64,000 nt of DNA, taken from the NCBI GenBank assembly GCA_964386225.1, contig CAYLTG010000001.1, positions 935 to 64,934 of the forward strand, read 5' to 3'. Made by a program: the position numbers and the translations under genes. Shown here one piece after another: positions 2,598-19,216 of this stretch. The DNA is from an uncultured Bacteroidales bacterium. GTDB lineage: Bacteria > Bacteroidota > Bacteroidia > Bacteroidales > JAADJA01. How positions within the stretch are numbered: the first letter of the stretch is position 1; the number at the start of each line of letters is the position of its first letter. Under the pieces are notes generated by a model that did no database searches, was not told the DNA's origin, and saw only the letters and a program-made list of their open reading frames with translations.

Positions 2598-2603
2598 GTC
2601 AGA

Positions 2604-4043: not shown

Positions 4044-4404
4044 TACCAGTGATTTAGGGTGTTTGAGAAAATGTCAATCAACTGTTCAGGTTTTATTTGA
4101 AGTCTTCAATTTGTCCTTATGCTCCGGTATGTGAAACGGGATGAGGTCTAGCAGGAGAGTTATTTCGAGTGCTTACCCGAAGCCATAGAACATTGTAAAT
4201 GTAAAGAAATTAGCCCATCAAACCAAAAATTACTCTGCCGGTCGTAAGCCTGGGTTGCATTTTGCAGTTTCAGAAAGCAGGGCTTTTGTCTCCTTCATCC
4301 CTCAAAAATTCCCGTTCACCACATTTTTCTTTCCTGCATCATTCTTTCCTGCTTGCTTTGGGCAGAATTTCAGAAATGGATTTTCAACGCATATCAGGAT
4401 TCAC

Positions 4405-5430
4405 ATGCAAAAAATAATTCAATTTTTCACTGTCACATTGATCGGGACGACCTTTCTTATAAGCTCCTGCAAGCACTCCCCCGAAGACAACATCAACCCC
4501 GACGATCCCAATAACCCGCCGCCGGTCGACACCATCGCCTGCGATTCCACCAACGTCACCTACCCCGGTACGGTTTTCCCCATCCTGCAGGCCAGCTGCC
4601 TCTCCTGCCATGGCGGCGCCACTCCGGCAGGGGGACTCGATTTCAACAATTATGACGACGTGGCCTTCGTGGCCCAGACCGGTCAGCTGGTGGGATCCAT
4701 CAACCACCTTGCAGGGTTCAAGCCCATGCCGCAGAACGGGCCTAAGCTTTCCGGGTGCGAGATCGCACTGATCACGAAATGGGTGAACGATACTACCTTC
4801 AACGGCGGGGGTGGTGGCAACAACGGCAACTGCGACCCCGATACGGTTTATTTTCATAATGATATTCTGCCACTTCTCCTTTCGAGCTGCGGCACCACAG
4901 GCTGCCACGATGAAGGTACGGCCCAGGAGGGCATCATCCTCACCAGCTACTTCCACGTGATGCAGTCGGGGGTGGTGAAGGCCTTCGATCCCAACGACAG
5001 CGAAATGTACGAGAAGATCACGGAGGACGACCCCGAAGACCGCATGCCGCCGCCGCCGCGGACACCCCTCAACGCCGACCAGATCAACATGATCTACACC
5101 TGGATCGCACAGGGGGCGCTGGACAACTCATGCGACGCCGGCGACTGCGACACGGTCAACGTCACCTTCTCGGGGACCATCTTCCCGATGATCCAGAACC
5201 GCTGCTACGGATGTCACAGCGGCCCGGAGCCCCAGAGCGGCATCAGCCTGGAGAATTATGCGTCCGTCAGCGCGGCCGCAGCCATCGCCCCGGGCAATCC
5301 CGGCAGCCTCCTGGGCGCCGTGACCGGGGCACAGGGCAACTCTCCGATGCCCAAGAACGGACCGCCGCTGCCCGACTGCAACATCGAGCAGATCAAGAAA
5401 TGGATCGCCGACGGGATGCCTGACAATTGA
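4405..5430 (+). CDS. Lipoprotein with three PSCyt1-like putative c-heme modules
   Basis: I moved the start from the ORF-track TTG 4255 to ATG 4405, which gives MQKIIQFFTVTLIGTTFLISSC (signal plus lipobox). There are three paralogous ~95-aa modules. Motifs: CLSCH at 4597-4611, CGTTGCH at 4888-4908, CYGCH at 5203-5217. The pattern P-I-L...CxxCHG...MP.NGP.L..C...I.KWI resembles the Planctomycete cytochrome C (PSCyt1) domain. Confidence 0.7.
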   Translation: MQKIIQFFTVTLIGTTFLISSCKHSPEDNINPDDPNNPPPVDTIACDSTNVTYPGTVFPILQASCLSCHGGATPAGGLDFNNYDDVAFVAQTGQLVGSINHLAGFKPMPQNGPKLSGCEIALITKWVNDTTFNGGGGGNNGNCDPDTVYFHNDILPLLLSSCGTTGCHDEGTAQEGIILTSYFHVMQSGVVKAFDPNDSEMYEKITEDDPEDRMPPPPRTPLNADQINMIYTWIAQGALDNSCDAGDCDTVNVTFSGTIFPMIQNRCYGCHSGPEPQSGISLENYASVSAAAAIAPGNPGSLLGAVTGAQGNSPMPKNGPPLPDCNIEQIKKWIADGMPDN

Positions 5431-5544
5431 CAATGAGTGAATGCGTAAATGAGTGAATAAGTGGTGAATTTTTACGGACTTTTTAAACAATCGCTTTGAA
5501 TGGGTGTTGACAGCACTGGCAAGTATAATCAAGAATATCAGATC

Positions 5545-5919
5545 ATGATCAGAAAAACAATCAATGCGGCATTGATGGTCCTGGCCCTGGCCGGCCTGCA
5601 GGCGTGCTACTGGGACAACGAGGAAGAGCTTTACCCCGTGGTGGGCGATTGCGACACCACCAACGTCACCTACTCCGGCACGGTGGCGGTGATCCTTGAC
5701 GCCAGCTGCGTTTCCTGCCACAACAGCACCTTCGCGCAGGCCGGGGTGGTGGTGGACAACTACGACGACCTCAAGGTGGTGGTCGACAACGGCCGTTTCT
5801 GGGGGGCCATCAACCATGAGGACGGATATTCACCCATGCCTCAGAACCTCCCCAAACTGCCGGAGTGCGACCTGAAGAAGATAAGGACCTGGATCGATAA
5901 CGGCGCCATGAATGACTGA
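5545..5919 (+). CDS. Lipoprotein with one PSCyt1-like putative c-heme module
   Basis: Start at ATG 5545 (MIRKTINAALMVLALAGLQAC, lipobox). It carries a single module paralogous to those of the upstream gene, with CVSCH at 5707-5721 and ...MPQNLPKLPECDLKKIRTWIDNGA. Confidence 0.7.
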   Translation: MIRKTINAALMVLALAGLQACYWDNEEELYPVVGDCDTTNVTYSGTVAVILDASCVSCHNSTFAQAGVVVDNYDDLKVVVDNGRFWGAINHEDGYSPMPQNLPKLPECDLKKIRTWIDNGAMND

Positions 5920-6029
5920 TACAAATGCTTACCCCGGATCTACTCATATGAAAATTTCCGGCCCCCTGGGCCCAATTACGGGCGACTGAACGAAGTTCAG
6001 GCGACCAAATGACCTAAAAACACATACCT

Positions 6030-6947
6030 ATGAAGCAACTGATTATCCTGCTCACCGCCCTTGCATTCAGCGCGTTGCCTATCCTCGCCCAGGACGACCT
6101 GATGGACCTGCTGAACAGCGAAGAGCAGGCCGTTGATTACACCTATGCCACCTTCAAGACCTCGAGGATCATCAACTCACACTCGGTGGAGCAGCCCGCA
6201 TCAGGCGTCCTGATGTTCCTCATCCAGCACCGGTTCGGGCGGCTGAACACCGGATTCTATGAACTATTCGGGCTCGACCAGGCAACCATCCGGCTGGGCC
6301 TGGAATACGGCGTCACCGACCGGCTTAGCATCGGCGTGGGTCGCAGTTCCTACCAGAAGACCTATGACGGGTTCGTCAAGTACAAGTTGTTGCGGCAGAG
6401 TACGGGTGCCCGGAAAATGCCCGTGACACTCTCGTACTACGGCAGCATGACGCTCAATTCGCTGAAATGGGAAGACCTGGGTGTGGAAGATCGCGACAAC
6501 AATTTCAGCTCCCGCCTGGCCTATACCCACAAGTTGCTGCTGGCGCGCAAGTTCAGCAGCAGCATTTCCCTGCAGCTGATGCCGACCTACACCCACAAGA
6601 ACCTTGTTCCCACGGCCGACGATGCCAACGACATCTTCTCCATGGGCGTCGGCGGAAGGGTGAAGATCACGAACCGGATGTCGGTGAATGCGGAATATTA
6701 CTACACCCCGGAAAGCCAGATCTCCTATGAGTTCACGCAGCCCTTCTCCCTTGGCCTCGACCTGGAAACGGGGGGGCATGTCTTCCAGCTCCACTTCTCC
6801 AATGCCCAGGCCTTCTTCGACAGCGGCTACCTGACCGAGACCTCCGGAAAGTGGGGCGATGGCGACGTCTATTTCGGGTTCAACATCTCACGGGTCTTCA
6901 CGATCAAGAAACCGAAGGTGCCGGAAGGGGAATCCACGGGATATTGA
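6030..6947 (+). CDS. Small outer-membrane beta-barrel protein (family not assigned)
   Basis: 305 aa with signal peptide MKQLIILLTALAFSALPILAQ. The sequence has an alternating amphipathic strand pattern rich in Y/G/S/T. It is the last gene of the CxxCH lipoprotein operon and is followed by a terminator. Confidence 0.65.
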   Translation: MKQLIILLTALAFSALPILAQDDLMDLLNSEEQAVDYTYATFKTSRIINSHSVEQPASGVLMFLIQHRFGRLNTGFYELFGLDQATIRLGLEYGVTDRLSIGVGRSSYQKTYDGFVKYKLLRQSTGARKMPVTLSYYGSMTLNSLKWEDLGVEDRDNNFSSRLAYTHKLLLARKFSSSISLQLMPTYTHKNLVPTADDANDIFSMGVGGRVKITNRMSVNAEYYYTPESQISYEFTQPFSLGLDLETGGHVFQLHFSNAQAFFDSGYLTETSGKWGDGDVYFGFNISRVFTIKKPKVPEGESTGY

Positions 6948-7011
6948 TCCCCCGATGTCAGATTGATCGTCCGCATTTGACGAAATTATCTTTTCTTTGC
7001 AGCAAGAACAA

Positions 7012-7043
7012 GGGGCCCGGCCATGCCGCAGGCCCTTTTTTTT
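7012..7043 (+). terminator. Rho-independent terminator after the CxxCH/beta-barrel operon
   Basis: GGGGCCCGGCCATGCCGCAGGCCC hairpin (GGGCC/GGCCC arms) followed by T8. Confidence 0.6.
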
Positions 7044-7045
7044 GA

Positions 7046-7759
7046 ATGTTATCAACTATCCATATGGAATTGTTCAAGGCAAACGACAAGCTGTTCGACC
7101 TGGTTGATGCCAACCACAACCTGCTGCCCGTGCTGAACCGGTTCGGCATTCGTCCGGGGTTCAAGGACAGGACGGTGGCGGAGGTATGCGCCGAAAAGGA
7201 GATCAACAAGGACTTCTTCCTGGCGCTGGTGAATACTTACAACAACCCTGATTATTTCCCGGAGGAAGAGCTGCTTGGGTTTTCCCCGCTGCTGATCATC
7301 GATTACCTCCGCAAAACGCATGAGTATTACATTGGTTATTTCCTGCCCCGCCTGGAATGGCTGCTCGACAGGATGTCGGGCGATGACGGGGGCGACAACC
7401 GCGACTTGAGAACGATCCGGTCTTTCTATGAGAAATACAGGCAGGAGCTCCTGGCCCATATCCGTGATGAGGAGGAGAATGTATTCCCGGCTGTCGTGGA
7501 CTTCATCCGGAACAGCGCGGACCGGAAACTGGGCAATGCGGCCATTTCCTTTGAAAAGGAACATACCAACGTGGAAATGAAGCTGAGCGACCTCAAGCAC
7601 CTCATCGTCAAATATGTCAGGCCGGGATACGACGACCATGATTTTTATGAGTTCGTGTCGGCCCTCTACCGTTTTGAAAAGGACATCATCGACCATGCCC
7701 GCATCGAGGACAAGATCCTCGTGCCCCGGATCAAAGGGATCACACCCGCTGCCAGATGA
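7046..7759 (+). CDS. Hemerythrin-like domain protein (RIC/ScdA-like architecture)
   Basis: 237 aa. The N-terminal ~60-aa helical domain resembles ScdA_N/DUF1858. The C-terminal part has spaced H/E residues (HEYYIGYF, AHIRDEEENVF, EKEHTNVE, IDHARIEDKIL) as in hemerythrin-like cation-binding four-helix bundles. An alternative start is ATG 7064 (MELFK...). Confidence 0.65.
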   Translation: MLSTIHMELFKANDKLFDLVDANHNLLPVLNRFGIRPGFKDRTVAEVCAEKEINKDFFLALVNTYNNPDYFPEEELLGFSPLLIIDYLRKTHEYYIGYFLPRLEWLLDRMSGDDGGDNRDLRTIRSFYEKYRQELLAHIRDEEENVFPAVVDFIRNSADRKLGNAAISFEKEHTNVEMKLSDLKHLIVKYVRPGYDDHDFYEFVSALYRFEKDIIDHARIEDKILVPRIKGITPAAR

Positions 7760-8352
7760 AAAGGGAGATCTTCATCATACACCCGTCACCCATTGTCAGG
7801 AAAGGGTTGAACGCCGCCCTGCGTGGCTTTTTCAGCCACGACATCACGATGCTGCCGGATGCTTCTGAAATGAAGGCCTACAGGGAGATCAGGAATTCCA
7901 TCGTGATCGTGTTCATCGGTCCTGACCAGGACCGGGGGCACCTCACCCGCCTCCAGGCGAGTAACCGGCTTCACCTGGTGCAGATCACCGGATCGGCCGG
8001 AGAAGGGGAGGTGAACGGCGACAAGGACCCTTTCCTCAGCATCCACGCCCAGGATCATCAGATCCGTGAACTGCTCCACGGGCTTCTGGAAAGGGACTCC
8101 GCCGCTGTTGCCGACCGGCCGCAGGACGACGAACTGACGGTCCGGGAAAAGGAGGTGCTAGCCCTGGTAGCCATGGGCCACTCCAGCAAGGAGATCGCCG
8201 ACAAGCTGTTCATCAGCGTCCATACCGTGATCTCCCACAGGAAGAACATCACCGAGAAGCTGGGCATCAAGTCCATCTCCGGCCTTACCGTGTATGCCAT
8301 CCTCAACCGCGTCATCGACCCCGATACCCTGAATGCCGACCTGCTGATCTGA
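7756..8352 (+). CDS. LuxR/GerE-family transcriptional regulator with degenerate receiver-like N-terminus
   Basis: The C-terminal HTH is LTVREKEVLALVAMGHSSKEIADKLFISVHTVISHRKNITEKLGI. The start overlaps the upstream stop as ATGA (7756-7759). The N-terminal beta1 reads IFIIHPSP rather than an acidic DD pair. Confidence 0.8.
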   Translation: MKREIFIIHPSPIVRKGLNAALRGFFSHDITMLPDASEMKAYREIRNSIVIVFIGPDQDRGHLTRLQASNRLHLVQITGSAGEGEVNGDKDPFLSIHAQDHQIRELLHGLLERDSAAVADRPQDDELTVREKEVLALVAMGHSSKEIADKLFISVHTVISHRKNITEKLGIKSISGLTVYAILNRVIDPDTLNADLLI

Positions 8353-10280: not shown

Positions 10281-10484
10281 TTACTTTTTTTTCGTGGTGC
10301 TCAATCCGAAGGGCAGATAAAGCGGGCAGAAGCTGACCAGGCTTGTGAGCAGGAATACGATGGCCAGGATCAGGAGGATGAGTCCCAGCGTTCCTGTGAT
10401 CACGTTCGTGAAATAGAGGACTGCGATGACCACAGCCAGGATGATGCGTACGATCCGGTCAGTGGATCCCATGTTTGCTTTCAT
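10281..10484 (-). CDS. DUF2892 (YgaP-like transmembrane domain) small membrane protein
   Basis: 67 aa. GSTDRIVRIILAVVI...two TM helices...FCPLY matches the characteristic DUF2892 pattern. Confidence 0.8.
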   Translation of the reverse strand: MKANMGSTDRIVRIILAVVIAVLYFTNVITGTLGLILLILAIVFLLTSLVSFCPLYLPFGLSTTKKK

Positions 10485-10546: not shown

Positions 10547-11104
10547 TTATTTCTTGAACTCTTCCAGCGCGACTTCAACAGTCACTTCGATCTCTTCGGC
10601 GATGTTATTGACCACCGTTTTGGGGATCTTGATGTCATGATCGGCGGGTTTGACAATAAATTTGCAATTGCCTTTCACCGCCCCGTCGGTCACGGTGAAA
10701 GTGCCGGACTCCTTGACCTCCCGGTCCACACCATGGATCGTCAGGATCCCTTCCACGATGGCCCGGTATTCTCCGGAAGTTCCGAAATCGATCTGGTCGA
10801 GGTTCGTCACTTTGCCTTTGAAGGTTGCATTGGGGAACTTCTCCGACTCCACGTAGTTCTCGTTGAAATGCTCCTGCATGAGGGCTTTTTCGAACTCGAA
10901 CGAACGCATGAGGACCTTGAAGACGAAATCGCCGGATTCCGAATCCAGGGCGCTGTTCACCTGGCGATTATGAGCTTCGATGGTCTCGATGGGGGTTTCG
11001 GAGTAGAACTTGATATACCCGTTCTTTGTGATGTACTTCTGCGAGAAGCCGGCCAAAAAGAACAGGAGCAGGGCTGCGGTTAGCATTGTTTGTTTCATTT
11101 CCAT
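10547..11104 (-). CDS. YceI-family (polyisoprenoid-binding lipocalin-like) periplasmic protein
   Basis: 185 aa with a signal peptide. The YceI-like core is ...IKFYSETPIETIEA...EHFNENYVESEKFPNATFKG...LTIHGV.... It is a paralog of the gene at 17213-17785. Confidence 0.85.
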   Translation of the reverse strand: MEMKQTMLTAALLLFFLAGFSQKYITKNGYIKFYSETPIETIEAHNRQVNSALDSESGDFVFKVLMRSFEFEKALMQEHFNENYVESEKFPNATFKGKVTNLDQIDFGTSGEYRAIVEGILTIHGVDREVKESGTFTVTDGAVKGNCKFIVKPADHDIKIPKTVVNNIAEEIEVTVEVALEEFKK

Positions 11105-11159: not shown

Positions 11160-12953
11160 CTATAATTTAATGATCGTTTTCGAAATTACCAGCCCGTTGT
11201 CGAGTTTCAGTGAGAGGTAATAGATCCCTGGTATGGCGTCACTCATGTCCACGCTGGCATTTTGCGTTCCGCCCCGCACAGTGAAATTACTGACCATCCT
11301 GCCGGTTGAAGAGTAAAGGCTGGCCTCGGTCACGCGCAGGTCATCCAGTTCGGCCCGCAGGGTGAATTTGTCGGTCACCGGGTTGGGGTACACATGCACC
11401 TGGCTTGCCAGGATGTTCTCCCGGATGCCGGTCAGTGGCCACTGGATGTCCGTGAAATTGGTGTTATGGGTGAAATCCAGCTCGCTGTCGCCGGCCACGC
11501 CGTTCAGTTCAAGCCTCCAGGCATGGTCAGCGGGGGGCGGGTCGTACACGCCGTTGCCGTTATGATCGGCATAGAAGTCCACGAAGTAATCCTCACCCAG
11601 TTCCAGCCCGATGGCAAGGGCGTCATAATCAACGAGCACGATGCTGTCGAGCCGCATCCTGCCGGCCTCCTGCATGGTAGCCTGGTTCACCAGCCGCAGT
11701 TCGAAGAGCTGGCCAAGGTGCGGGGTCATCCCCATGGCATGGAGCGTGAACCGGTACTCCCAGCCGATGTCGGTGAAGTTGGTATTGTGAATGAACTCGT
11801 CGTCCTCATCGCCCTCCACATCGGTGAGCTCCAGCCTCCAGGCATGGTCGGCAGGGGGCGCATCGTACACGCCGTTGCCGTTATGATCGGCCCAGAAATC
11901 CACATAATAGGTTTCCCCGGTGCTGATGAATGGCATATGCACGTCGAACTCCGCCGAGGGGATCGCGTCCACCTTTGCGCGGCCGGCTTCTTTCATGGTG
12001 GCCATGTCCACGAGGCGCACCTCTAATTTTTGCCCGATGTGCGGGGTCATGCCGCTGAACTCCAGCGTGTACATGTGCTTGAAGTTGATCTCCGAGAAGT
12101 TGAGGTTATGCTGGAAATCCACGGCGGAAAATCCCATGAAGTCGTTCACGGTGAGCCTCCAGGCATGGTCGGTGGGGATGCCGTCGTACCATCCGTTGTC
12201 ATTGTGGTCGGCGTAGAAATCGATCCAGTAGCTCTTTCCGTCCTCGGTGTTGGAAAAGGAAATGTCGAAGTCGGGGCCCGGCACCTCATCCAAAGCGAGG
12301 CGTTCCACCTCCGTGAGGTTTTCCTTGTCGATGAGCCTGGCTTCCATCAGCTGGCCCACGTGCGGGGTCATGCCGGTCAGGTTGACGGTGATCCCGGTCT
12401 GTACGCCGGAGGATTCGGCCACCGGAAGGGTGGAGGTGTAGATGACGTCCCCCTGGTTGTTGCCGTTCCCGTTGGCGGCGTTGAAGGCGGCATAGAAGGT
12501 GACCTCGCCGGTGCCTGCTGCGGGGGCGGTCCAGTCGAACGACCAGGATTTGGAATCGCCCGTGGGGGTGGTGCCTGCGTTCTTGTGCGTGATGGCGTTG
12601 TTGCTGTTGATCAGCATGGTCTCGGTCGCATTGGTGACCACCAGGGTGCCGACCTTGCTGGCGCCCGCATCCTCCGAGGTCAGTTCGAACCCGAATTTCC
12701 CGACTCCGGGATGCGTACCCGTGGCGGTGATGGTATAGGTCTGACCCGGCTCATAGCCGTCGGCAGGGATGTCGGAGGTGATCCAGCCCGCCTGCGCCGT
12801 GGCTGTTCCGCTATGACACTGGGTGCAGGTGGTGCCGCCGTCGCCGGGGCTGCCGGTCTTGCCGCCCGGTGAGCCGGAGGAATACATCAATTCGGAGGTC
12901 AGCAGGAAAAACAGGCCCGCCACAGTAAAGAGAAGGTAAATTGCTTTTTTCAT
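11160..12953 (-). CDS. T9SS-sorted surface protein: N-terminal CxxCH domain plus three ~105-aa repeats
   Basis: 597 aa with a signal peptide. GGTTCTQCHSG carries the CxxCH at 12813-12827. Three repeats follow, each with GMTPH[VIL]GQ ... ADHN[GD]NG[VW]YD..P[AT]DHAWRL. The T9SS CTD is VYPNPVTDKFTL...GIYYLSLKL...IKL. Confidence 0.8.
   Translation of the reverse strand: MKKAIYLLFTVAGLFFLLTSELMYSSGSPGGKTGSPGDGGTTCTQCHSGTATAQAGWITSDIPADGYEPGQTYTITATGTHPGVGKFGFELTSEDAGASKVGTLVVTNATETMLINSNNAITHKNAGTTPTGDSKSWSFDWTAPAAGTGEVTFYAAFNAANGNGNNQGDVIYTSTLPVAESSGVQTGITVNLTGMTPHVGQLMEARLIDKENLTEVERLALDEVPGPDFDISFSNTEDGKSYWIDFYADHNDNGWYDGIPTDHAWRLTVNDFMGFSAVDFQHNLNFSEINFKHMYTLEFSGMTPHIGQKLEVRLVDMATMKEAGRAKVDAIPSAEFDVHMPFISTGETYYVDFWADHNGNGVYDAPPADHAWRLELTDVEGDEDDEFIHNTNFTDIGWEYRFTLHAMGMTPHLGQLFELRLVNQATMQEAGRMRLDSIVLVDYDALAIGLELGEDYFVDFYADHNGNGVYDPPPADHAWRLELNGVAGDSELDFTHNTNFTDIQWPLTGIRENILASQVHVYPNPVTDKFTLRAELDDLRVTEASLYSSTGRMVSNFTVRGGTQNASVDMSDAIPGIYYLSLKLDNGLVISKTIIKL
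11433..12392 (-). repeat. Three tandem intragenic coding repeats (~315 nt each)
   Basis: Protein repeats span roughly aa 188-294, 295-400 and 401-507. Repeats 2 and 3 share an identical 29-nt stretch, TCGTACACGCCGTTGCCGTTATGATCGGC (11863-11891 and 11542-11570). Confidence 0.8.
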
Positions 12954-12972: not shown

Positions 12973-13410
12973 TTATTCATTGACGATCGAACATTTCTCC
13001 AGGATCACATCCGTACCATTGAACCCTGTGCAATAACCCTTGAGGGTGGCGCTCGCATCCTTTAAAAGGGCGCTGGCCGCCCGGCTGTGGTTGTCGAGCA
13101 TGGTCAGCCGGATCCCTTCGTCCCCGAACATCCCTTCGCTCAACGCAAAGACCACGATGGTGAGGGAGTCGGGCGTTTCCACGGCTGTTACCCGGCCGGT
13201 CACCTGGAGCACTTTCCCGTTGTAGGTGTTTTCTGCCTCCTTCCGGTTGCCGGTGTAGTGGGAGAACAGCTCCTCGGCCGTGATGCGGTACTCCGCCTCC
13301 GCCTTTTCATAGTCGGTGTGTGGCTTGTTGTACACGAAAACATATCCCAGAATGCCTGCTGCGATCCCGAGGAATACCAGTACTGCGATGATCTTGATCC
13401 ACTTGTTCAT
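12973..13410 (-). CDS. Membrane-anchored OB-fold protein (tRNA_anti-like family pattern)
   Basis: MNKWIKIIAVLVFLGIAAGILGYVFVYNKP is an N-terminal TM anchor. It is followed by ...AEELFSHYTGNRKEAENTYNGKVLQVTGRV.... An alternative upstream ATG lies at 13431. Confidence 0.7.
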   Translation of the reverse strand: MNKWIKIIAVLVFLGIAAGILGYVFVYNKPHTDYEKAEAEYRITAEELFSHYTGNRKEAENTYNGKVLQVTGRVTAVETPDSLTIVVFALSEGMFGDEGIRLTMLDNHSRAASALLKDASATLKGYCTGFNGTDVILEKCSIVNE

Positions 13411-13473
13411 GGCATGGTCGATTTGTTCCATGCAAAGGAACGTGAATGCGACAGGGTGCGGAAATAAAACTCC

Positions 13474-13506
13474 GTGAACGGGAATTATGGAATGGTGAAC
13501 GGGAAT
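13474..13506 (-). promoter_or_regulatory. Candidate LytTR operator: ATTCCCGTTCAC x2, 21-bp period
   Basis: Exact 12-mer copies lie at 13495-13506 and 13474-13485 (read on the minus strand) with a 9-bp spacer. They sit between the LytTR regulator gene and the downstream gene. I confirmed the sequence against the ORF-track translation ...YSRSPFHNSRSR.... Confidence 0.55.
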
Positions 13507-13524
13507 ATGTGAGCAATTGCCGTG

Positions 13525-14283
13525 TCAGCCGGCCTGTCCGTCAAGCCATTTCTTGAAGCTTCCCGAGCGCTCTGTGCTGGCTACGGTCTCGAAATCGCAG
13601 GGCGGATCCAGCTCGACCTTCACCCGCGATTTGGACCAGGCGTACATCTCCCTGATCGCGCGGATGTTGATGATGATCTGCCTGTTGATGCGGTAGTAAC
13701 GCTCCGGGTCAAGCATGCCCTCCAGACGGTCGAGGCTGTGGTCCGATGGGTATTCCATGCCGTCGAAGGTCTTGAAGAAATTGTTTCCCTCCAGGGTATA
13801 GAAATAGGCGATCTCATCCGTCGGTACCACCTTGATCTTCTGTCCGTAGCGCACCATGAACCGCTTCTGGTAGCTGCGGGGCGTCAGGACCCCCGCCAGG
13901 GCCCCGTAATCGGGCTTCCTGTCCTGCTGCGAGATCCTTTTCAGTTTATCCAGGCTGGCCTTCAACTGGTCGCGCGACACCGGCTTCAGCAGGTAGTCGA
14001 TGCTGTTCACCCGGAAGGCATCGATGGCGTACTGGTCGTATGCCGTGGTGAAGATCACGGGGATATCCATGTGGACGGCCCTGTATATCTCGAAGCAGCT
14101 GCCATCGGCCAGGTGGATGTCCTGGAAGATCAGGTCGGGGTGGGGGTGGGAGGTCAGCCAGGCGATGCTGGATTCGACGCTGTCAAGGATCTCCACCACC
14201 TCGATGCCGGGATCCAGTTCGCCGATCAGTTTTTGCAGCCGCTGGGCCGTGGCGTGTTCGTCTTCGATGATGAGCGCTTTCAT
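13525..14283 (-). CDS. LytTR-family two-component response regulator
   Basis: The receiver is MKALIIEDE...DLIFQDIHLADG.... The C-terminal LytTR DNA-binding domain is ...IKVVPTDEIAYFYTLEGNNFF...YYRINRQIIINI.... I prefer ATG 14283 over the ORF-track TTG 14292. Confidence 0.9.
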   Translation of the reverse strand: MKALIIEDEHATAQRLQKLIGELDPGIEVVEILDSVESSIAWLTSHPHPDLIFQDIHLADGSCFEIYRAVHMDIPVIFTTAYDQYAIDAFRVNSIDYLLKPVSRDQLKASLDKLKRISQQDRKPDYGALAGVLTPRSYQKRFMVRYGQKIKVVPTDEIAYFYTLEGNNFFKTFDGMEYPSDHSLDRLEGMLDPERYYRINRQIIINIRAIREMYAWSKSRVKVELDPPCDFETVASTERSGSFKKWLDGQAG

Positions 14284-14288
14284 GAAAT

Positions 14289-17216
14289 TCAAGGGATAAA
14301 AGGAAGTCCGACGGTGAAGGCATGTTCCGTTTTGATGACCATAACTTCTTCATCGGTGAGCAGTTTGTACCTGCTGATGATGTTGTTGATGCCGATCCCG
14401 GTGGAAGGTGTATCCTGCAATTTTTCCTGGATGTTGTTCTCCACAAAAATACGATTTTCGCCGGGTTTTGAAAAGATTTTGATCCTTAAGGGTTTGCCCC
14501 TGGATGCCACATTGTGCTTGATCGCATTCTCGATGAGCAGCTGCAAGGTGAGGGGCGGGATCTTCGTCCCCCTGAAGGCGGAGGGTTCCTCCATTTCAAC
14601 CACCAGGTTGCTGCCATACCTCTTTTTCTGCAGGTTGATGTAGTTGCCGGCGATCTCGTACTCACGGTCCAGGCTCACCAGGTCCTGGTCCTTGTATTCC
14701 AGGATGATCCTGAAGAGCATGGAAAGTTCTTCCACGTAGTTGACAGCAGCCTTTGTGTCATCTTCGATGAGTGCGATGAGGGTGCTGAAGCTGTTGAACA
14801 GGAAGTGGGGGTTGATCTGGCTCTTCAGGTTCTCGAACTGGAACCTGATCTTTTCCTGGATCAATTCCTCCTTTCGCCTAACCTGCCGGATCCTGGCCGT
14901 AAGGATCATGGCGGTCAGCCCGCCTGCCGCCAGCACCAGCAGGATGTAAAACCAGATCGAGGAATGGAATGGCTTGCGGATGGTGAAGGTGTACGCTTCT
15001 TCCCCGGCAGCGCTGAAATTTCCGTAAAGGCCCGACCTGACGCGGAAAGTGTATTCACCCGGCCGCAGGTCAGAATAGATCACCTGGTTGTTGCGTGTCC
15101 GTATCCAGCCCAGGTCATGTCCGTCAAGCTTCACCTGGTATTCCACCTGGTCGGGTTGCTGGTACCAGAAACCCGAATAGTTGAACGAGAGGTGGTTCTC
15201 GTTGTGGTTAAACTGCTTGCTGCCCGAATGGTTGAACGGCTCCAGGAACAGGGCGACCCCTTCCAGTTTGGTCCGCGGCTGTTCCCACAACCCTTTTTCC
15301 AGGGGCCGGATCCGGATAATGCCTTTGGCCGTCCCTATCCATAGTGCATGGTGCGAATCGCGGGCGAGGGTGTTGAGGTCGGGGTTGATGAAGGCGATCC
15401 CCGCATTTTCCTCGAAATGCCGGATGGCCCCGGTGGATATGTTCATCACATCGATGCCGTTCTCGTGGGCCATCACCAGTTCGCCCTTGCTGCTGAGTAT
15501 CCCGCTGATGGTCACTTCCCGCCGTCCGGCCTCGCGGGAAATCCGGGAATAGCTTGTGCCGTCGTATTTATGGAGTCCTTCTCCGGCTATGTTGAGCCAG
15601 GTGTTGCCGGCGTCATCGCGAGCGACCGAATATACCACCTTGTCGGCCATTTCACCCCCCGGGTCCAGGTGGAGGAATTCCCCGTCCCGGTAAAGATGCA
15701 CGCCGCTGCCGTCGGTCGCGAAATAGGGTGTTCCGTCGTCCGGGAGGAATACCTGGTAGATGTAATTGTTCACGAGCCCTTCCTCCGATCCGAAATTCTG
15801 AAAAGTTGGCACGTGGTCCGGTTCTTCCATGTTTTTATCCATGATGCACCGTGATGCGCCGCCCAGTGTGCCGAACCAGATCTCCTGCCTGTTCCCGGTA
15901 ATGGAGAGCACATTGCCGTTCACCAGCCCGTCGCGCTCGGTGATGACTACCTGCCGGCCGGTCCCGGGGTCCATCCTGACCAGCCCGCTGCCGAAGGTCC
16001 CCACCCAGATGAAGCCGAGGTAGTCGCGGTAGATGCTCATCACCTTCTGCTGGTCCAGGTCGATGATCAGCGGGTGATGTACCGCGGCTGCCCCGGGCTG
16101 CCCCGGGTCATAGGAGTAGATGCCCCGGTCATCGGCGAACCACAGCTGGTCGTCGCTGTCGACGGTGAGGGCATGGATGTTGTTCAGCTCCATCCCGCCG
16201 ATCGACTGGAAGAACTCGATCCTGTTCCCGAACGAAAGATACAATTCGTTGCCGGAGAGCAGCCAGATGTTGCCCTCCTGGTCCCTAAGCATGGACTTGA
16301 TCCTTCCCATGGTTTGTTCCCCGACATCCCGGTAATGGGTCACGGTGCCGGTTTCGGGGCTGTATTCCATGATGCCCCTGTCCGATGTGGCGATCCAAAT
16401 CCTGTCCTCCAGGATCACCATGTCGCGCACCGCACCGAACTGCCATTCCCGCAGGTTTTCCGGCACGTGGAAGGTGCCGCTGCGTTGGTCATACCTGCAG
16501 ATGCCCCGGTCATACATCCCGATCCAGATGCTGCCGCTGTCACCGGCGGCGAGGCATTGCACGATAAAATCGGGCAGGCCCTCGTCGATGCTCAGCTTCG
16601 TAACTTTCCATGCGCCACCCTCGGATCCCGCCACATTGATCCCGTTGTCGGTGCCCATCCAGATCCTGTTGCCGGGACCCGTGACGATGGAGTAGATGTA
16701 ATTGTCGGAAAGGCCTGACTCGCTGTTCATCTGGACGATGGCCGTATCCCGGCTGACGAATGCGCCGCTGCCGTAGGTGGCCATCCACACGGTCCCCGGC
16801 TCTCCCTCGACGAAGCCCGTGATCCGGCTGACATTCTCCCTGCCGGCTGACAGCACGGTGTCGAAAACCTCGAATCCGTCATACGTCAGGACGCCGCCAT
16901 TTTCAAAACCGATCCAGAGGTTGCCGGAATGGTCGGTGAACAGGGCGGTTGGTCCCTCGTCCCTGAAGTTGCCGGGGAGCACCACCGGTGTGAAGGATAG
17001 TCCGTCGAAGGTGTACAACCCTGCGGCCGTCCCCAGCCAGATCATGCCGTCGTGATCCTGGTGTATGCAGTTCAGGTTGCCCTCCCCGACTTTCGTGTCG
17101 ATGGGGACAGTCCGGAACCAGGCCTGGGCCCGCGCGTCAGGTGCCGCCAGCAGCACCGGAAGGATCAGGGTCGCAACCGCGGCAATCAGGGTCAACAGGA
17201 AGGGGCGCCCGGTCAT
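14289..17216 (-). CDS. Sensor histidine kinase with periplasmic two-component-regulator propeller/Y_Y_Y domain and LytS/YehU-type kinase core
   Basis: 975 aa with a signal or TM segment. Many propeller repeats are present (G.IW[IL]GT..G[LI]). The Y_Y_Y-like segment is YQVKLDGHDLGWIRT...PGEYTFRVRS and the TM segment is IWFYILLVLAAGGLTAMILTA. The His_kinase box is QINPHFLFNSFSTLIALI, followed by a HATPase region. Confidence 0.9.
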   Translation of the reverse strand: MTGRPFLLTLIAAVATLILPVLLAAPDARAQAWFRTVPIDTKVGEGNLNCIHQDHDGMIWLGTAAGLYTFDGLSFTPVVLPGNFRDEGPTALFTDHSGNLWIGFENGGVLTYDGFEVFDTVLSAGRENVSRITGFVEGEPGTVWMATYGSGAFVSRDTAIVQMNSESGLSDNYIYSIVTGPGNRIWMGTDNGINVAGSEGGAWKVTKLSIDEGLPDFIVQCLAAGDSGSIWIGMYDRGICRYDQRSGTFHVPENLREWQFGAVRDMVILEDRIWIATSDRGIMEYSPETGTVTHYRDVGEQTMGRIKSMLRDQEGNIWLLSGNELYLSFGNRIEFFQSIGGMELNNIHALTVDSDDQLWFADDRGIYSYDPGQPGAAAVHHPLIIDLDQQKVMSIYRDYLGFIWVGTFGSGLVRMDPGTGRQVVITERDGLVNGNVLSITGNRQEIWFGTLGGASRCIMDKNMEEPDHVPTFQNFGSEEGLVNNYIYQVFLPDDGTPYFATDGSGVHLYRDGEFLHLDPGGEMADKVVYSVARDDAGNTWLNIAGEGLHKYDGTSYSRISREAGRREVTISGILSSKGELVMAHENGIDVMNISTGAIRHFEENAGIAFINPDLNTLARDSHHALWIGTAKGIIRIRPLEKGLWEQPRTKLEGVALFLEPFNHSGSKQFNHNENHLSFNYSGFWYQQPDQVEYQVKLDGHDLGWIRTRNNQVIYSDLRPGEYTFRVRSGLYGNFSAAGEEAYTFTIRKPFHSSIWFYILLVLAAGGLTAMILTARIRQVRRKEELIQEKIRFQFENLKSQINPHFLFNSFSTLIALIEDDTKAAVNYVEELSMLFRIILEYKDQDLVSLDREYEIAGNYINLQKKRYGSNLVVEMEEPSAFRGTKIPPLTLQLLIENAIKHNVASRGKPLRIKIFSKPGENRIFVENNIQEKLQDTPSTGIGINNIISRYKLLTDEEVMVIKTEHAFTVGLPFIP

Positions 17217-17785
17217 GGGGTGGATGGTGTTTTGGTCAGTGTCACTTCAATGCTCACGGCCACCTCTTCGGCGATCTTCTGGTAGACGAGCTTCGGAATG
17301 GTGATGTTGTGGTCGTCGAGGCTGACCATGAACCTGCTGGTGGCCGTGAACTGGTCCGGCCCGATGTCGAGCATGCATTTGATGATCCTTTCTTTTTTGA
17401 CACCGTGGATGTCAAGGATGCCCTTGGCCCGGACCTCGAGCCGACCCGGGACGCTGAGGTCGACCTTTTCGATGATCCTCCCGCTGAAAGAGGCGTTGGG
17501 ATATTTCTCCACCTCGATGTAGTTCTCGTAAAAATGTTCCTGCTGCAAGGGTGAATTGAAACCGGTAAGGGTTTGCGTCCCCACCTGGAAGGCAAAGGTG
17601 CCCTTGGAGGGATCGAACAGGCCCCTGAGGGCATCCGACTCTGCTGCGATGAGTTCCAGCGGGGCGTCGGAAACGAAGGAAACATGCCCGTTCTCGGCCC
17701 TGTATAGTACGGCGGACCCCTCATCCTGTCCCAACAGGCCGAGGGCAAGGCAAAGGAACGACAAGCTGATGATCATCCTGTTCAC
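17213..17785 (-). CDS. YceI-family periplasmic protein, translationally coupled to the sensor kinase
   Basis: 190 aa with a GTG start and a signal peptide. The YceI-like core is EHFYENYIEVEKYPNASFSG...ILDIHGV. Its stop overlaps the kinase ATG as ATGA (17213-17216). Confidence 0.85.
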   Translation of the reverse strand: MNRMIISLSFLCLALGLLGQDEGSAVLYRAENGHVSFVSDAPLELIAAESDALRGLFDPSKGTFAFQVGTQTLTGFNSPLQQEHFYENYIEVEKYPNASFSGRIIEKVDLSVPGRLEVRAKGILDIHGVKKERIIKCMLDIGPDQFTATSRFMVSLDDHNITIPKLVYQKIAEEVAVSIEVTLTKTPSTP

Positions 17786-17823: not shown

Positions 17824-17831
17824 TAGTTTTG
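17824..17831 (+). promoter_or_regulatory. Bacteroidota-type -7 box TAGTTTTG upstream of the phoD-like gene
   Basis: It matches TAnnTTTG and lies ~50 nt upstream of ATG 17882. This supports the shorter start for the phosphatase gene. Confidence 0.4.
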
Positions 17832-17881
17832 TGAGATACCGCAGCCTTTTGAAAAGATCAGGGCATGCAAACATCACATCT

Positions 17882-19216
17882 ATGAAAGCTATCCGGTTTG
17901 TATTCGTGTTTTGCCTTCTTCCTTTCGTTGCTGATTGCCAGGATTATCCGGCGGAGGTGCTCCGCTCGGGCCCGATGGTGGGTTATTCCACCATGAAGGA
18001 GGTGATGATCTGGGTCCAGACCAGGTACCCGGCCCGTGTGCACCTCACATGGAGCGAAAAGGGCAGCCCCGGGAAGGAACAACGGTCTGAGGATGTCTTG
18101 TCAGGCCCTGACCATTTCTTTGTGGTGAAATTGCCGGCGGCCGTCGAGCCGGGAAAGGAATATGCCTATGCTGTCTGGGTCGATGGCGAAAAGTTGGATT
18201 TCCCCTATGCCCTCGAGTTCAGGAGCCAGGAATTGTGGCAATGGAGGCACGACCCCCCCGGTTTCAAGTTCGTCATCGGCAGCTGCAATTACGACAACGA
18301 ACCTTTGCTCGACAGGCCGGGCACCCCTTACGGGGCCGACCACTTCATCTTCGATTCCATGCTGAAGAAAGACCCCGATTTCATGGTATGGATGGGTGAT
18401 AACAACTACCTCCGGGAAGCCGATTGGAACTCCCGCACAGGCATCTTTCACCGCTACACCTGCAACCGCTCCATGCCGGAGCTGCAGCCCTTTTTAGGAT
18501 CGGTCCACCATTATGCCACATGGGACGACCATGACTATGGCCCCAACAACTCCGACCGGAGCTACTGGATGAAGGACGTGACAATGGAAGCCTTCAGGCT
18601 TTTCTGGGCCAATCCCAATTACGGCCCCGGCGGTGGCGTCAGCGGCACCTTTTTCTGGGGCGACGTTCAGTTTTTCCTGCTCGACAACCGCTGGTTCAGG
18701 ACACCCAACAACCTGCGGTCGGACGACCGGGTGATGTTCGGGGAGCAACAGTTGCAATGGCTCATCGACGCGCTGAGCACAAGCCAGGCGCCCTTCAAGT
18801 TCGTGGTGACGGGCGGCCAGGTCCTTAACCCGGTGGTGGAGCCCTGGACCGAAAATTTTGCCAAATACCCGGAGGAACAGAAGAAGCTGTTTGATGCCAT
18901 CCGGGACAATGCCATCACCGGGGTCTTCTTCCTCACCGGCGACCGGCACATGGCCGAGTTGGCGAAGATGGACAGGGAGGGGACCTACCCGTTCTACGAC
19001 CTCACCGTGTCGCCCCTTACCGCCGGGCCCGACAACGGACGCCGCAAGGACGAGGCCAATGCCTTCCGCATGCCCGGAACCTATTACGGGCAGCGCAATT
19101 TTGCACTGCTGGAGGTCTCCGGGGCCCGCAGGGACAGGAAATTGAAGATCACGCTGTGCGACAGCCATGGAAAAGAAGTGTGGTCGAAGACCATCCACGA
19201 GGATGAGTTGAAATAG
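17882..19216 (+). CDS. PhoD-like alkaline phosphatase/metallophosphatase
   Basis: Start at ATG 17882 (MKAIRFVFVFCLLPFVADCQ signal). Motifs WMGDNNYL, ATWDDHDYGPNN and FLTGDRHMAE are typical of the PhoD family. Confidence 0.8.
   Translation: MKAIRFVFVFCLLPFVADCQDYPAEVLRSGPMVGYSTMKEVMIWVQTRYPARVHLTWSEKGSPGKEQRSEDVLSGPDHFFVVKLPAAVEPGKEYAYAVWVDGEKLDFPYALEFRSQELWQWRHDPPGFKFVIGSCNYDNEPLLDRPGTPYGADHFIFDSMLKKDPDFMVWMGDNNYLREADWNSRTGIFHRYTCNRSMPELQPFLGSVHHYATWDDHDYGPNNSDRSYWMKDVTMEAFRLFWANPNYGPGGGVSGTFFWGDVQFFLLDNRWFRTPNNLRSDDRVMFGEQQLQWLIDALSTSQAPFKFVVTGGQVLNPVVEPWTENFAKYPEEQKKLFDAIRDNAITGVFFLTGDRHMAELAKMDREGTYPFYDLTVSPLTAGPDNGRRKDEANAFRMPGTYYGQRNFALLEVSGARRDRKLKITLCDSHGKEVWSKTIHEDELK

What the first reader, a model, noticed from the sequence alone, without database searches (positions are those of the whole stretch)
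13474..13506. Perfect 12-bp direct repeat at 21-bp phasing immediately downstream of the LytTR regulator gene: candidate LytTR operator
Seen in sequence: a 93-bp gap separates the LytTR response-regulator stop (13525) from the next same-strand gene (ATG 13431 or 13410). In it the transcribed minus strand reads CAT-ATTCCCGTTCAC-CATTCCATA-ATTCCCGTTCAC-GGAG. The 12-mer is exact in both copies (plus coordinates 13495-13506 and 13474-13485), with a 9-bp spacer and a 21-bp period. Established knowledge: LytTR regulators (AgrA, AlgR, ComE, PlnC/D) bind paired ~9-bp direct repeats about two helical turns apart, with consensus [TA][AC][CA]GTTN[AG][TG]. The core CCGTTCA fits this consensus and resembles the AlgR CCGTTCGTC site. 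Inference: this is the operator through which the adjacent propeller kinase/LytTR pair drives the downstream OB-fold / T9SS-CxxCH / YceI / DUF2892 genes. No good TTTG/TAnnTTTG promoter follows, which is consistent with an activator-dependent promoter.
Basis: partly seen in the sequence, partly recalled or inferred. Interest (0 to 1): 0.7.

Follow-up and report, generated by a model that had tools for sequence, protein, structure and literature searches.

The report
Conserved LytTR operator-promoter in Bacteroidota
The two identical 12-base repeats are very probably a real binding site for the neighbouring LytTR response regulator, part of a promoter conserved across many Bacteroidota, and a second copy in the window links a cytochrome-like gene cluster to the same uncharacterised two-component system.

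Summary
On the minus strand, ATTCCCGTTCAC occurs at 13506..13495 and 13485..13474, a 21-bp period, starting 18 nt after the LytTR regulator's stop codon.

The exact repeat alone is weak evidence: 16% of shuffled windows contain such a repeat. Comparative data are strong:
- In 20 of 34 genomes whose regulator is at least 45% identical, a pair of TnCCnGTTCA(G/T)C half-sites follows the regulator gene, always exactly 21 bp apart.
- A matrix built only from those genomes ranks 13473-13507 first in the whole window.
- In 23 of 28 sites the best Bacteroidota -7 box (TAnnTTTG) lies exactly 33 nt after the proximal repeat. In the window it is TTCCTTTG at 13440..13433, so the predicted TSS is ~13428.
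- A second operator at 4286-4320(+), with TTGCTTTG at the same distance, precedes a PSCyt1 cytochrome/DUF5777 operon. Orthologues of these genes sit directly downstream of the regulator in other genomes.

A weak -7 box does follow. The downstream gene probably starts at 13410. The regulon has at least two promoters in the window.

It is a new member of a known kind, a classical LytTR direct-repeat operator, in an unstudied, widely conserved Bacteroidota system. Binding itself is untested.

The parts
13495..13506 (-). Distal half-site ATTCCCGTTCAC (predicted -78..-67)
   Evidence: The matrix window 13494-13507 scores 15.2 bits, the best single hit in the window.
13474..13485 (-). Proximal half-site ATTCCCGTTCAC (predicted -57..-46), 21 bp from the distal copy
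   Evidence: The 21-bp spacing is invariant in all 20 orthologous pairs.
13461..13464 (-). -33-like element TTTC (consensus TTTG), 20 nt upstream of the -7 box
   Evidence: ATTT is invariant in alignment A1 of the window, L081, L001 and L002. The -33/-7 consensus is taken from PMC6847099.
13433..13440 (-). -7 box TTCCTTTG (TAnnTTTG with A-11 replaced by T). The predicted TSS is ~13428.
   Evidence: It is the best box in a 60-nt range and lies at offset 32, as in 23 of 28 sites. The box spans -12..-5 according to PMC6847099 and PMC9723704.
10281..13410 (-). Target operon A: tRNA_anti-like OB-fold membrane protein (13410..12973), choice-of-anchor-V/Reeler T9SS protein with CxxCH (12953..11160), YceI (11104..10547) and YgaP-like TM protein (10484..10281)
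   Evidence: Pfam, NCBIfam, synteny in L001 and L002.
13525..14283 (-). Response regulator with receiver and LytTR domains, the presumed binder
   Evidence: Pfam LytTR E=1.2e-15, Response_reg E=2.9e-13. The ATG 14283 start is confirmed by a called gene. It is the only LytTR gene in the window.
14289..17216 (-). Sensor kinase: Reg_prop propeller, Y_Y_Y and LytS-type His_kinase (PF06580) domains
   Evidence: Conserved next to the regulator in the loci.
17213..17785 (-). YceI-like gene, first gene of the conserved YceI-kinase-regulator module
4286..4320 (+). Second operator: weak distal half TTGTCTCCTTCATC (4.8 bits) plus strong proximal half AATTCCCGTTCACC (14.1 bits; exact 12-mer at 4308-4319), 21 bp apart
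   Evidence: Second-best pair in the window, 18.8 bits. It lies in a divergent intergenic region.
4353..4360 (+). -7 box TTGCTTTG of the second promoter. The predicted TSS is ~4365.
   Evidence: It lies at offset 32 from the operator, the same as site A.
4405..8352 (+). Target operon B: PSCyt1/cbb3-type cytochrome c lipoprotein (4405-5430), small PSCyt1 protein (5500-5919), DUF5777 beta-barrel (6030-6947), hemerythrin (7046-7759) and GerE/LuxR protein (7756-8352)
   Evidence: Pfam. Orthologues of the first three lie directly downstream of the regulator in L005, L007, L016, L018, L020, L024, L027-L030, L032 and L068.

Best explanation
The two repeats are the operator of an activator-dependent promoter. 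The propeller/LytS-type kinase presumably phosphorylates the LytTR regulator, which then dimerises. Its two LytTR domains bind the two direct half-sites, which sit on the same face of the helix two turns apart, at about -78..-67 and -57..-46. From there the regulator recruits or stabilises RNA polymerase holoenzyme with sigma-A on a weak Bacteroidota promoter: -33 TTTC, a 20-nt spacer, and -7 TTCCTTTG lacking A-11. Transcription starts near 13428 and runs into the OB-fold / choice-of-anchor-V T9SS / YceI / YgaP-like operon. The same regulator acts at a second promoter of identical geometry at 4286-4360(+), which drives the PSCyt1 cytochrome / DUF5777 / hemerythrin operon. Shown here: the repeats, their conservation, the 21-bp phasing, the fixed distance to the -7 box, the strand specificity and the linkage to the regulator and target genes. 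Inferred: binding by this regulator, activation rather than repression, the TSS positions and the dependence on phosphorylation.
For: (1) In an unbiased self-match scan of the 150 nt after the regulator gene in 75 loci, offset 21 scores 10.7, against about 1.9 for a typical other offset. (2) An iterative matrix built from the loci only finds pairs in 20 of 34 loci with at least 45% identity. All are spaced 21 bp, although 20 and 22 were also allowed. The consensus is T(T/A)TnCCnGTTCA(G/T)C. (3) That matrix ranks 13473-13507 first in the window at 25.9 bits; the shuffle maximum was 20.1. (4) In 873 kb of loci, 39 of 40 pair hits of at least 17 bits lie on the gene strand. Sites also follow displaced target genes (L005, L006, L014, L019) and sit upstream of the YceI-kinase-regulator operon in L004, L020 and L031. 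(5) In 23 of 28 sites the best TAnnTTTG match within a 60-nt range lies at exactly offset 32 (my binomial estimate ~1e-31). The exceptions L022 and L026 have it at 53 = 32+21, which keeps the helical face. (6) The alignment with the three closest relatives is ungapped from the distal repeat to the -7 box. Only the repeats, an ATTT block at -37..-34 and the TT..TTTG box are conserved. (7) The second window site precedes genes that in 12 other genomes lie in the operon directly after the regulator. (8) This regulator is the only LytTR protein in the window and the only regulator consistently linked across loci; the LuxR-type gene is seen only in L002. (9) The architecture matches published LytTR sites. 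These are repeats of 9-11 nt separated by 11-13 nt (PMC4847170), and the promoter-proximal AgrA repeat is centred near -60 (PMC4227749). The E. coli btsT promoter has ACC[GA]CT[CT]A twice, 21 bp apart.
Against: There is no experimental binding or TSS data. The exact 12-mer repeat alone is not significant (16% of shuffles). Both -7 boxes in the window lack the nearly invariant A-11. The -33 element is TTTC, not TTTG. The distal half of the second site is weak (4.8 bits), and its pair score (18.8) lies within the shuffle range (maximum 20.1). The matrix found no pair within 220 nt downstream of the regulator gene in 14 of the 34 close loci, but several of these have the site elsewhere in the locus or in a variant form (L004, L005, L006, L014, L019, L023, L031). 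Many loci are related MAGs, so the number of independent lineages (~25) is smaller than the raw counts. No terminator separates the regulator gene from the repeats, so read-through transcription may also contribute.
Confidence: 0.85

Rival explanations
1. The conserved repeats are a real operator, but another transcription factor binds them rather than the adjacent LytTR regulator. That factor could be another LytTR protein elsewhere in the genome, or the GerE/LuxR protein at 7756-8352.
For: No binding data exist. Only 64 kb of the genome is visible. Bacteroidota genomes carry many LytTR paralogues (549 relatives confirmed).
Against: The site is physically linked to this regulator's orthologues across Bacteroidales, Saprospiraceae, Chitinophagaceae and Cytophagales. 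The LuxR-type gene is linked only in L002. Direct repeats 21 bp apart are the signature of LytTR regulators, not of GerE dimers, which bind inverted repeats (the GerE point is from my own knowledge). No other LytTR gene lies in the window.
Confidence: 0.07
2. The regulator binds the repeats but acts negatively, as a repressor or as a roadblock to read-through from its own operon.
For: There is no terminator between the regulator gene and the repeats. AgrA can also repress (bsaA; PMC4227749).
Against: The sites lie upstream of the -33 element, not over the -33/-7/TSS region. The distance to the -7 box is fixed to the base pair, or shifted by exactly two helical turns, as expected for contact with RNA polymerase. 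Site B has no co-directional upstream gene to read through from. The core promoters are weak and lack A-11.
Confidence: 0.05
3. The repeat is a chance or recent 21-bp duplication, or acts at the RNA level in the 3' UTR of the regulator mRNA, with no role as a protein-binding DNA site.
For: 16% of shuffled windows contain some exact 12-mer short-range repeat. The strand bias alone would also fit an RNA element.
Against: Only the 12-mers are conserved; the 9-nt spacers differ, so this is not a simple tandem duplication. Conservation extends to regulators of only 45-50% identity. There is no inverted repeat. The RNA fold is not significant (z = -1.1; 29 of 200 shuffles fold as well). There is no Rfam hit in related loci. 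A 21-bp period and a fixed distance to a -7 box are properties of DNA.
Confidence: 0.02

Closest known systems
BtsS/BtsR (YehU/YehT) and YpdA/YpdB of E. coli, with their operators at the btsT (yjiY) and yhjX promoters
   Same: Both have a LytS-type kinase core (Pfam His_kinase PF06580) and a receiver-LytTR regulator. Both operators are direct repeats 21 bp apart: in E. coli K-12 the btsT upstream region has ACCGCTTA and ACCACTCA with 21 bp start-to-start spacing. The half-site cores are related, CC(G/A)(C/T)T(C/T)A; L081 has CCCGCTCA. Binding to a strong and a weak site is cooperative for YpdB (PMC4847170), which resembles the strong-proximal/weak-distal pairs seen here.
   Different: The regulator is not an orthologue: NCBIfam BtsR scores 77 bits against a cut-off of 246. 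The sensor has a periplasmic propeller/Y_Y_Y domain instead of the membrane-embedded sensor and GAF domain of BtsS (BtsS architecture is from my own knowledge). The Bacteroidota matrix scores the btsT operator at only 1.4 bits, so the specificities differ. The core promoter is the Bacteroidota -33/-7 type, not -35/-10. The targets are extracytoplasmic cytochrome-like, YceI and beta-barrel proteins, not a pyruvate transporter.
AgrA (P2/P3), ComE and PlnC/PlnD direct-repeat operators of Firmicutes
   Same: Paired direct repeats lie about two helical turns apart, immediately upstream of a suboptimal promoter, and a phosphorylated LytTR regulator activates it (PMC4227749; PMC4847170).
   Different: The half-site sequences differ. 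There is no peptide quorum-sensing partner here. The kinase is not of the AgrC/HPK10 type. The organism and sigma-factor promoter type differ.
AlgR binding sites (CCGTTCGTC) of Pseudomonas aeruginosa
   Same: The cores are similar. The window's CCGTTCACC matches CCGTTCGTC at 7 of 9 positions. Chitinophagales orthologous sites read CCTGTTCGTC and CCGATTCGTC.
   Different: AlgR sites are mostly single 9-mers at very variable distances and orientations (-470, -394, -45, +163; PMC4064291). They are not fixed 21-bp pairs at a fixed distance from the promoter. The regulator is not an AlgR orthologue (no NCBIfam match).

Membership tests
LytTR response-regulator operator (paired direct repeats) | Two direct repeats of about 9-11 nt separated by about 11-13 nt, a period of ~21 bp (PMC4847170) | tested here: met
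   The window has two exact 12-mers (9-nt core CCCGTTCAC) with a 21-bp period. The spacing is 21 bp in all 20 orthologous pairs.
LytTR response-regulator operator (paired direct repeats) | The cognate regulator carries a LytTR DNA-binding domain | tested here: met
   Pfam LytTR matches residues 152-250 with E=1.2e-15, together with a receiver domain.
LytTR response-regulator operator (paired direct repeats) | The site lies just upstream of the core promoter of a regulated gene, in the orientation of that gene | tested here: met
   The proximal repeat ends 33 nt before a -7 box in 23 of 28 sites. 39 of 40 hits lie on the gene strand. The TSS itself is predicted, not measured.
LytTR response-regulator operator (paired direct repeats) | The half-site fits the consensus [TA][AC][CA]GTTN[AG][TG] (Nikolskaya & Galperin 2002, recalled from memory) | tested here: inconclusive
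   The window's CCCGTTCAC fits 7 of 9 positions. The family consensus CCnGTTCA(G/T) fits 7-8 of 9; position 1 is C in all 40 half-sites rather than T/A. LytTR regulators do not share one consensus (PMC4847170).
LytTR response-regulator operator (paired direct repeats) | Specific, phosphorylation-enhanced binding of the regulator to the repeats | not testable with these tools
   This needs EMSA, footprinting or ChIP.
LytTR response-regulator operator (paired direct repeats) | Conservation of the site at orthologous loci | tested here: met
Bacteroidota sigma-A promoter (-33 TTTG / -7 TAnnTTTG) | TAnnTTTG at -12..-5, with T-12, A-11, T-8, T-7, T-6 and G-5 nearly invariant (PMC6847099) | tested here: inconclusive
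   The window boxes TTCCTTTG and TTGCTTTG match 5 of the 6 specified positions; A-11 is missing. The closest relatives (L081, L001, L002) also read TTnnTTTG. The boxes match TAnnTTTG perfectly in L007, L016, L018, L019, L020, L027-L029 and L093.
Bacteroidota sigma-A promoter (-33 TTTG / -7 TAnnTTTG) | A TTTG element about 19-21 nt upstream of the -7 box | tested here: inconclusive
   The window has TTTC at 13464..13461, 20 nt upstream. An ATTT block is invariant among the four closest sequences. L007 has TTTG. The -33 element is weakly conserved even in true promoters (PMC6847099).
BtsS/BtsR (YehU/YehT) system | The regulator and kinase are orthologous to BtsR and BtsS | tested here: not met
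   NCBIfam BtsR scores 77 bits against a cut-off of 246. The kinase has propeller/Y_Y_Y domains.
BtsS/BtsR (YehU/YehT) system | The operator is ACC[GA]CT[CT]A twice, 21 bp apart | tested here: not met
   The period is the same, but the Bacteroidota matrix scores the E. coli btsT operator at only 1.4 bits. The window half-site CCCGTTCA matches ACCGCTTA at 5 of 8 positions.
AlgR regulon site | The 9-mer CCGTTCGTC, bound by AlgR | tested here: not met
   The core matches at 7 of 9 positions. The regulator is not an AlgR equivalog. The site geometry differs.

The most novel reading that the evidence does not exclude
The operator defines a previously undescribed regulon spread across several orders of Bacteroidota. 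A conserved three-gene module (YceI-like protein, propeller/LytS-type kinase and LytTR regulator) controls a set of extracytoplasmic proteins through promoters of one rigid geometry (half-site, 21 bp, half-site, 33 nt, -7 box). These proteins are PSCyt1 CxxCH lipoproteins, a second YceI, a DUF5777 outer-membrane barrel, an OB-fold membrane protein and, in this lineage, a choice-of-anchor-V T9SS protein. In some Chitinophagales the same operator also drives arrays of 3-4 tandem C/A-rich small RNAs. If this is true, the motif allows genome-wide regulon prediction. It also gives a first handle on the function of DUF5777, PSCyt1 and YceI proteins in this phylum.
Probability: 0.55. Interest if true: 0.55.

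Novelty: new member of a known kind. Interest (0 to 1): 0.42.

Why it matters
LytTR regulators are well studied in Firmicutes and Proteobacteria. In the literature searched here I found no study of this propeller-kinase/LytTR system, of its operator or of DUF5777. The analysis turns a single repeat into a testable model with three components. First, a position matrix. Second, a fixed promoter geometry, with predicted start sites at ~13428 and ~4365. Third, a conserved target set of cytochrome-like lipoproteins, YceI proteins and an outer-membrane barrel. This would let anyone with a cultivated relative (e.g. Pontibacter, Taibaiella or Lewinella, which carry the locus) define the regulon and look for the signal. 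The mechanism itself is conventional, so the value lies in annotation and hypothesis generation rather than in new concepts.

Tried and rejected
1. sigma-70-type promoter/terminator scan: one weak -35/-10-like match overlapping the repeats, no more than chance, and the wrong promoter type for Bacteroidota. No terminator on the minus strand.
2. Other paired matrix hits in the window: 61722-61756(-) at 18.0 bits and 28020-28055(+) at 17.7 bits. Both lie inside long ORFs and have no -7 box at +32 or +53, so I treat them as chance.
3. Autoregulatory site upstream of the YceI-kinase-regulator operon in the window: none, best pair -12.1 bits. Such sites do exist in L004, L020 and L031.
4. RNA-level function: the fold of 13527..13411 is not significant. 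There are no Rfam hits in four related loci.
5. PDB sequence search with the regulator: only receiver-domain matches, nothing informative for the LytTR domain.
6. Exact-sequence look-up of the 255-aa regulator ORF failed. The 252-aa form from ATG 14283 is on record on one 1.6-kb Logan contig, which gave no extra context.
7. Literature: no paper on DUF5777. No paper on this two-component system in Bacteroidota. The F. johnsoniae LytTR mutation paper says nothing about binding sites. The Kraxenberger 2012 paper on the YehT motif is not held, so I checked the motif directly on the E. coli K-12 sequence.
8. Correlating half-site variants (..TTCACC in the window's clade, ..TTCAGC in Ferruginibacter/Saprospiraceae, ..TTCGTC in Flavipsychrobacter/Taibaiella) with regulator sequence was considered and not pursued, because it is confounded with phylogeny.

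Full report
THE OBSERVATION

Reading the minus strand gives ...gctcacat-ATTCCCGTTCAC-cattccata-ATTCCCGTTCAC-ggagttttatttcc...

The repeats begin 18 nt after the stop codon (13527..13525) of a receiver + LytTR response regulator. Pfam gives LytTR E=1.2e-15. The regulator follows a 975-aa kinase with Reg_prop propeller, Y_Y_Y and LytS-type His_kinase (PF06580) domains, and a YceI-like gene, all on the minus strand.

Downstream on the same strand lie four genes:
- a tRNA_anti-like OB-fold membrane protein
- a 597-aa T9SS protein with a choice-of-anchor-V/Reeler domain and a CxxCH motif
- a second YceI
- a YgaP-like membrane protein

A third exact copy of the 12-mer lies at 4308-4319 on the plus strand.

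IS IT MORE THAN CHANCE?

Taken alone, only mildly. It is the only exact 12-mer direct repeat at 12-50 bp spacing in the window. But 16% of dinucleotide shuffles contain at least one such repeat. The case rests on comparative data.

CONSERVATION AT ORTHOLOGOUS LOCI

A scan of one genome per species found 80 loci encoding relatives of the regulator. The best are 66-67% identical (Bacteroidales MAGs). Saprospiraceae, Lewinellaceae, Chitinophagaceae, Pontibacter and others follow at 45-56%.

Simply printing the 200 nt after each stop codon showed pairs such as these:
- TTTTCCCGTTCGGG / TTTTCCCATTCACC (L001)
- TGTTCCCGTTCAGC / TTTTCCCGTTGAGC (L007)
- TATTCCTGTTCAGC / AATACCTGTTCAGT (L008)

An unbiased self-match scan over 75 loci gave offset 21 a weight of 10.7, against about 1.9 for a typical other offset.

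I then refined a half-site matrix iteratively on the loci only, excluding the window. It found a pair in 20 of 34 loci with at least 45% identity. In every case the spacing was 21 bp, although 20 and 22 were allowed. The consensus is T(T/A)TnCCnGTTCA(G/T)C.

Used on the window, this independent matrix puts 13473-13507(-) first among all positions on both strands, at 25.9 bits. The shuffle maxima have mean 14.0, sd 2.4 and largest 20.1.

Independent metagenome contigs repeat the pattern. They include the closest relative found, L081 at 77% identity, which reads TCTTCCCGCTCACC-ctcaatt-TTTTCCCGTTCACA.

Across 873 kb of loci, 39 of 40 paired hits of at least 17 bits lie on the gene strand and one on the other. 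The opposite strand serves as an internal control.

THE REPEATS ARE PART OF A PROMOTER

Anchoring all sites on the proximal repeat shows one.

In 23 of 28 sites the best match to TAnnTTTG within a 60-nt range lies at exactly offset 32 from the matrix window, which is 33 nt after the 12-mer. About 0.8 sites would be expected by chance (2.7% per site); my binomial estimate is ~1e-31. Related loci inflate this figure somewhat.

In the window the box is TTCCTTTG at 13440..13433.

The two Chitinophagales exceptions (L022, L026) have the box at offset 53. That is exactly 21 bp further, so the helical face is kept.

I aligned the intergenic region with the three closest relatives. The alignment is ungapped from the distal repeat to the box. 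Apart from the two repeats, only an ATTT block and TT..TTTG are conserved.

The -7 box occupies -12..-5 (PMC6847099, PMC9723704). This gives the following predicted map:

| Element | Window coordinates | Position relative to TSS |
|---|---|---|
| Distal repeat | 13506..13495 | -78..-67 |
| Proximal repeat | 13485..13474 | -57..-46 |
| ATTT block (contains the -33-like TTTC, 13464..13461, -36..-33) | 13465..13462 | -37..-34 |
| -7 box TTCCTTTG | 13440..13433 | -12..-5 |
| Predicted TSS | ~13428 | +1 |

The TTTC element lies 20 nt upstream of the box.

The predicted TSS lies downstream of ATG 13431. The gene therefore most likely starts at ATG 13410 (MNKWIKI...). This N-terminus is conserved in L081, L001 and L002.

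The core promoter is weak: it lacks A-11 and has TTTC where the consensus has TTTG. That fits activator dependence. The window's closest relatives also have TTnnTTTG, whereas more distant genomes have perfect TAnnTTTG boxes.

A SECOND OPERATOR AND THE REGULON

The second-best pair in the window is 4286-4320(+). It has a weak distal half, TTGTCTCCTTCATC (4.8 bits), and the exact 12-mer within a strong proximal half (14.1 bits). It is followed at the same offset 32 by TTGCTTTG (4353-4360), which predicts a TSS at ~4365.

The pair score of 18.8 bits is within the shuffle range, but three other facts support the site. It lies in a divergent intergenic region. It has the right geometry. And it precedes an operon that encodes:
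- a lipoprotein with PSCyt1 and cbb3-type cytochrome c domains and three CxxCH motifs (4405-5430)
- a small PSCyt1 protein
- a DUF5777 beta-barrel
- a hemerythrin
- a GerE/LuxR protein

I ran tblastn with the window's proteins against the loci. In L005, L007, L016, L018, L020, L024, L027-L030, L032 and L068, the orthologues of OB, PSCyt-large, PSCyt-small, YceI and DUF5777 form a single cluster directly downstream of the regulator gene. In L006, L008-L010, L014, L022 and L050 they lie directly upstream of the YceI-kinase-regulator module.

So in the window one ancestral cluster has been split in two, and each part carries its own copy of the operator-promoter. Where targets are displaced, the operator goes with them: L005 at 7573-7628 (three half-sites in phase), L006 at 56-90, L014 at 40-74, L019 at 9343.

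Some genomes also have a site upstream of the YceI-kinase-regulator operon (L004, L020, L031), which suggests autoregulation. The window does not; its best pair there scores -12.1 bits.

The remaining matrix hits in the window lie inside ORFs and lack the box.

MECHANISM

The geometry is that of classical LytTR operators. Published sites have two repeats of 9-11 nt separated by 11-13 nt (PMC4847170). The promoter-proximal AgrA repeat is centred near -60 at suboptimal promoters (PMC4227749).

I therefore propose the following. The phosphorylated regulator binds as a dimer to the two half-sites, on one face of the DNA. From about -50 and -71 it activates RNA polymerase at a weak sigma-A promoter.

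In several orthologous sites the distal half is much weaker than the proximal one. This fits sequential, cooperative binding as shown for YpdB.

Binding, the sign of regulation, the TSSs and the signal are all inferred. The regulator is the only LytTR protein in the window and the only regulator consistently linked to the site.

An RNA-level role is unlikely, for three reasons:
- there is no inverted repeat
- the fold z-score is -1.1
- the conserved properties are a 21-bp period and a fixed distance to a -7 box, both features of DNA

COMPARISON WITH KNOWN SYSTEMS

The closest functional analogues are the LytS/LytTR systems BtsS/BtsR and YpdA/YpdB of E. coli. I checked the btsT promoter of E. 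coli K-12 directly. ACCGCTTA and ACCACTCA lie 21 bp apart. The period is therefore the same and the core is related, CC(G/A)(C/T)T(C/T)A.

The present system is nevertheless not a member of that family:
- NCBIfam BtsR scores 77 bits against a cut-off of 246, and no equivalog matches
- the kinase has a periplasmic propeller/Y_Y_Y sensor
- the Bacteroidota matrix scores the btsT operator at only 1.4 bits

The resemblance to the AlgR site CCGTTCGTC (PMC4064291) is 7 of 9 positions for the window. It is closer in Chitinophagales sites (CCTGTTCGTC). However, AlgR sites are not fixed 21-bp pairs. The fit to the general LytTR consensus, recalled from Nikolskaya & Galperin 2002, is 7 of 9.

NOVELTY AND VERDICT

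It is a new member of a known kind: a textbook-style LytTR direct-repeat operator, adapted to the Bacteroidota -33/-7 promoter. It belongs to a two-component system and regulon for which I found no literature.

A specialist would not be surprised by the mechanism. The useful product is a precise, testable regulon model for a widely conserved but unstudied set of extracytoplasmic cytochrome-like, YceI and DUF5777 proteins.

Scores: interest 0.42; confidence in the operator-promoter model 0.85.

Noticed in passing
L026:3857-4920 and L022:6770-7800 (related loci, not the window): Directly after the orthologous LytTR gene lie 3-4 tandem units, ~285 nt long in L026 and ~240-275 nt in L022. Each unit consists of an operator pair, a TACTTTTA/TACATTTA box at offset 53, a ~150-nt C/A-rich, G-poor stretch with repeated CCAA/ATCCAA motifs, and a GC hairpin followed by a T-run. 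There is no plus-strand ORF and no Rfam match. They look like arrays of LytTR-driven small RNAs. L006 and L083 carry similar ATCCAAATCCAACGAAAA sequence.
   Followed up: partly
window 13525-17785 (-) and loci L001-L032: A YceI-like gene always precedes the kinase and regulator (YceI-kinase-regulator), and a second, distinct YceI paralogue lies among the targets. The first YceI may be a periplasmic co-sensor for the propeller kinase. This is pure inference.
   Followed up: no
window 4327-4337 and 4342-4352 (+): An exact 11-bp direct repeat, TTCTTTCCTGC, with a 15-bp period lies between the second operator and its -7 box, at about -38..-13. No explanation was sought.
   Followed up: no
window 13433-13440 (-), 4353-4360 (+); L081, L001, L002: All five promoters of the window's clade have T instead of the nearly invariant A at -11 of the -7 box (TTnnTTTG). 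More distant genomes have TAnnTTTG at the same position. This could reflect promoter weakness or a clade-specific sigma-factor preference.
   Followed up: no
window 11160-12953 (-): The choice-of-anchor-V/Reeler T9SS protein with an N-terminal CTQCH motif is present in the operon only in the window and in L002. It is absent from the other loci. L001 goes directly from the OB gene to YceI.
   Followed up: no
window 14283-14292 and 13410-13431 (-): Two start codons probably need revision. The regulator probably starts at ATG 14283 (252 aa, as called on a Logan contig), not at TTG 14292. The gene caller used ATG 13431 for the OB gene, but conservation and the predicted TSS favour ATG 13410.
   Followed up: partly
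L005:7573-7628; L004:2480-2514; L020:2427-2461; L031:2494-2528: Pontibacter (L005) has three half-sites in phase at 21 bp upstream of its cytochrome operon. Three other genomes have an operator pair upstream of the YceI-kinase-regulator operon, which suggests autoregulation. The window lacks such a site.
   Followed up: partly
window 480-4043 (-) and 17831-19216 (+): The regulon is flanked by two further T9SS-tail proteins (480-2597 and 2604-4043) and by a PhoD-like phosphatase. None has an operator match.
   Followed up: no
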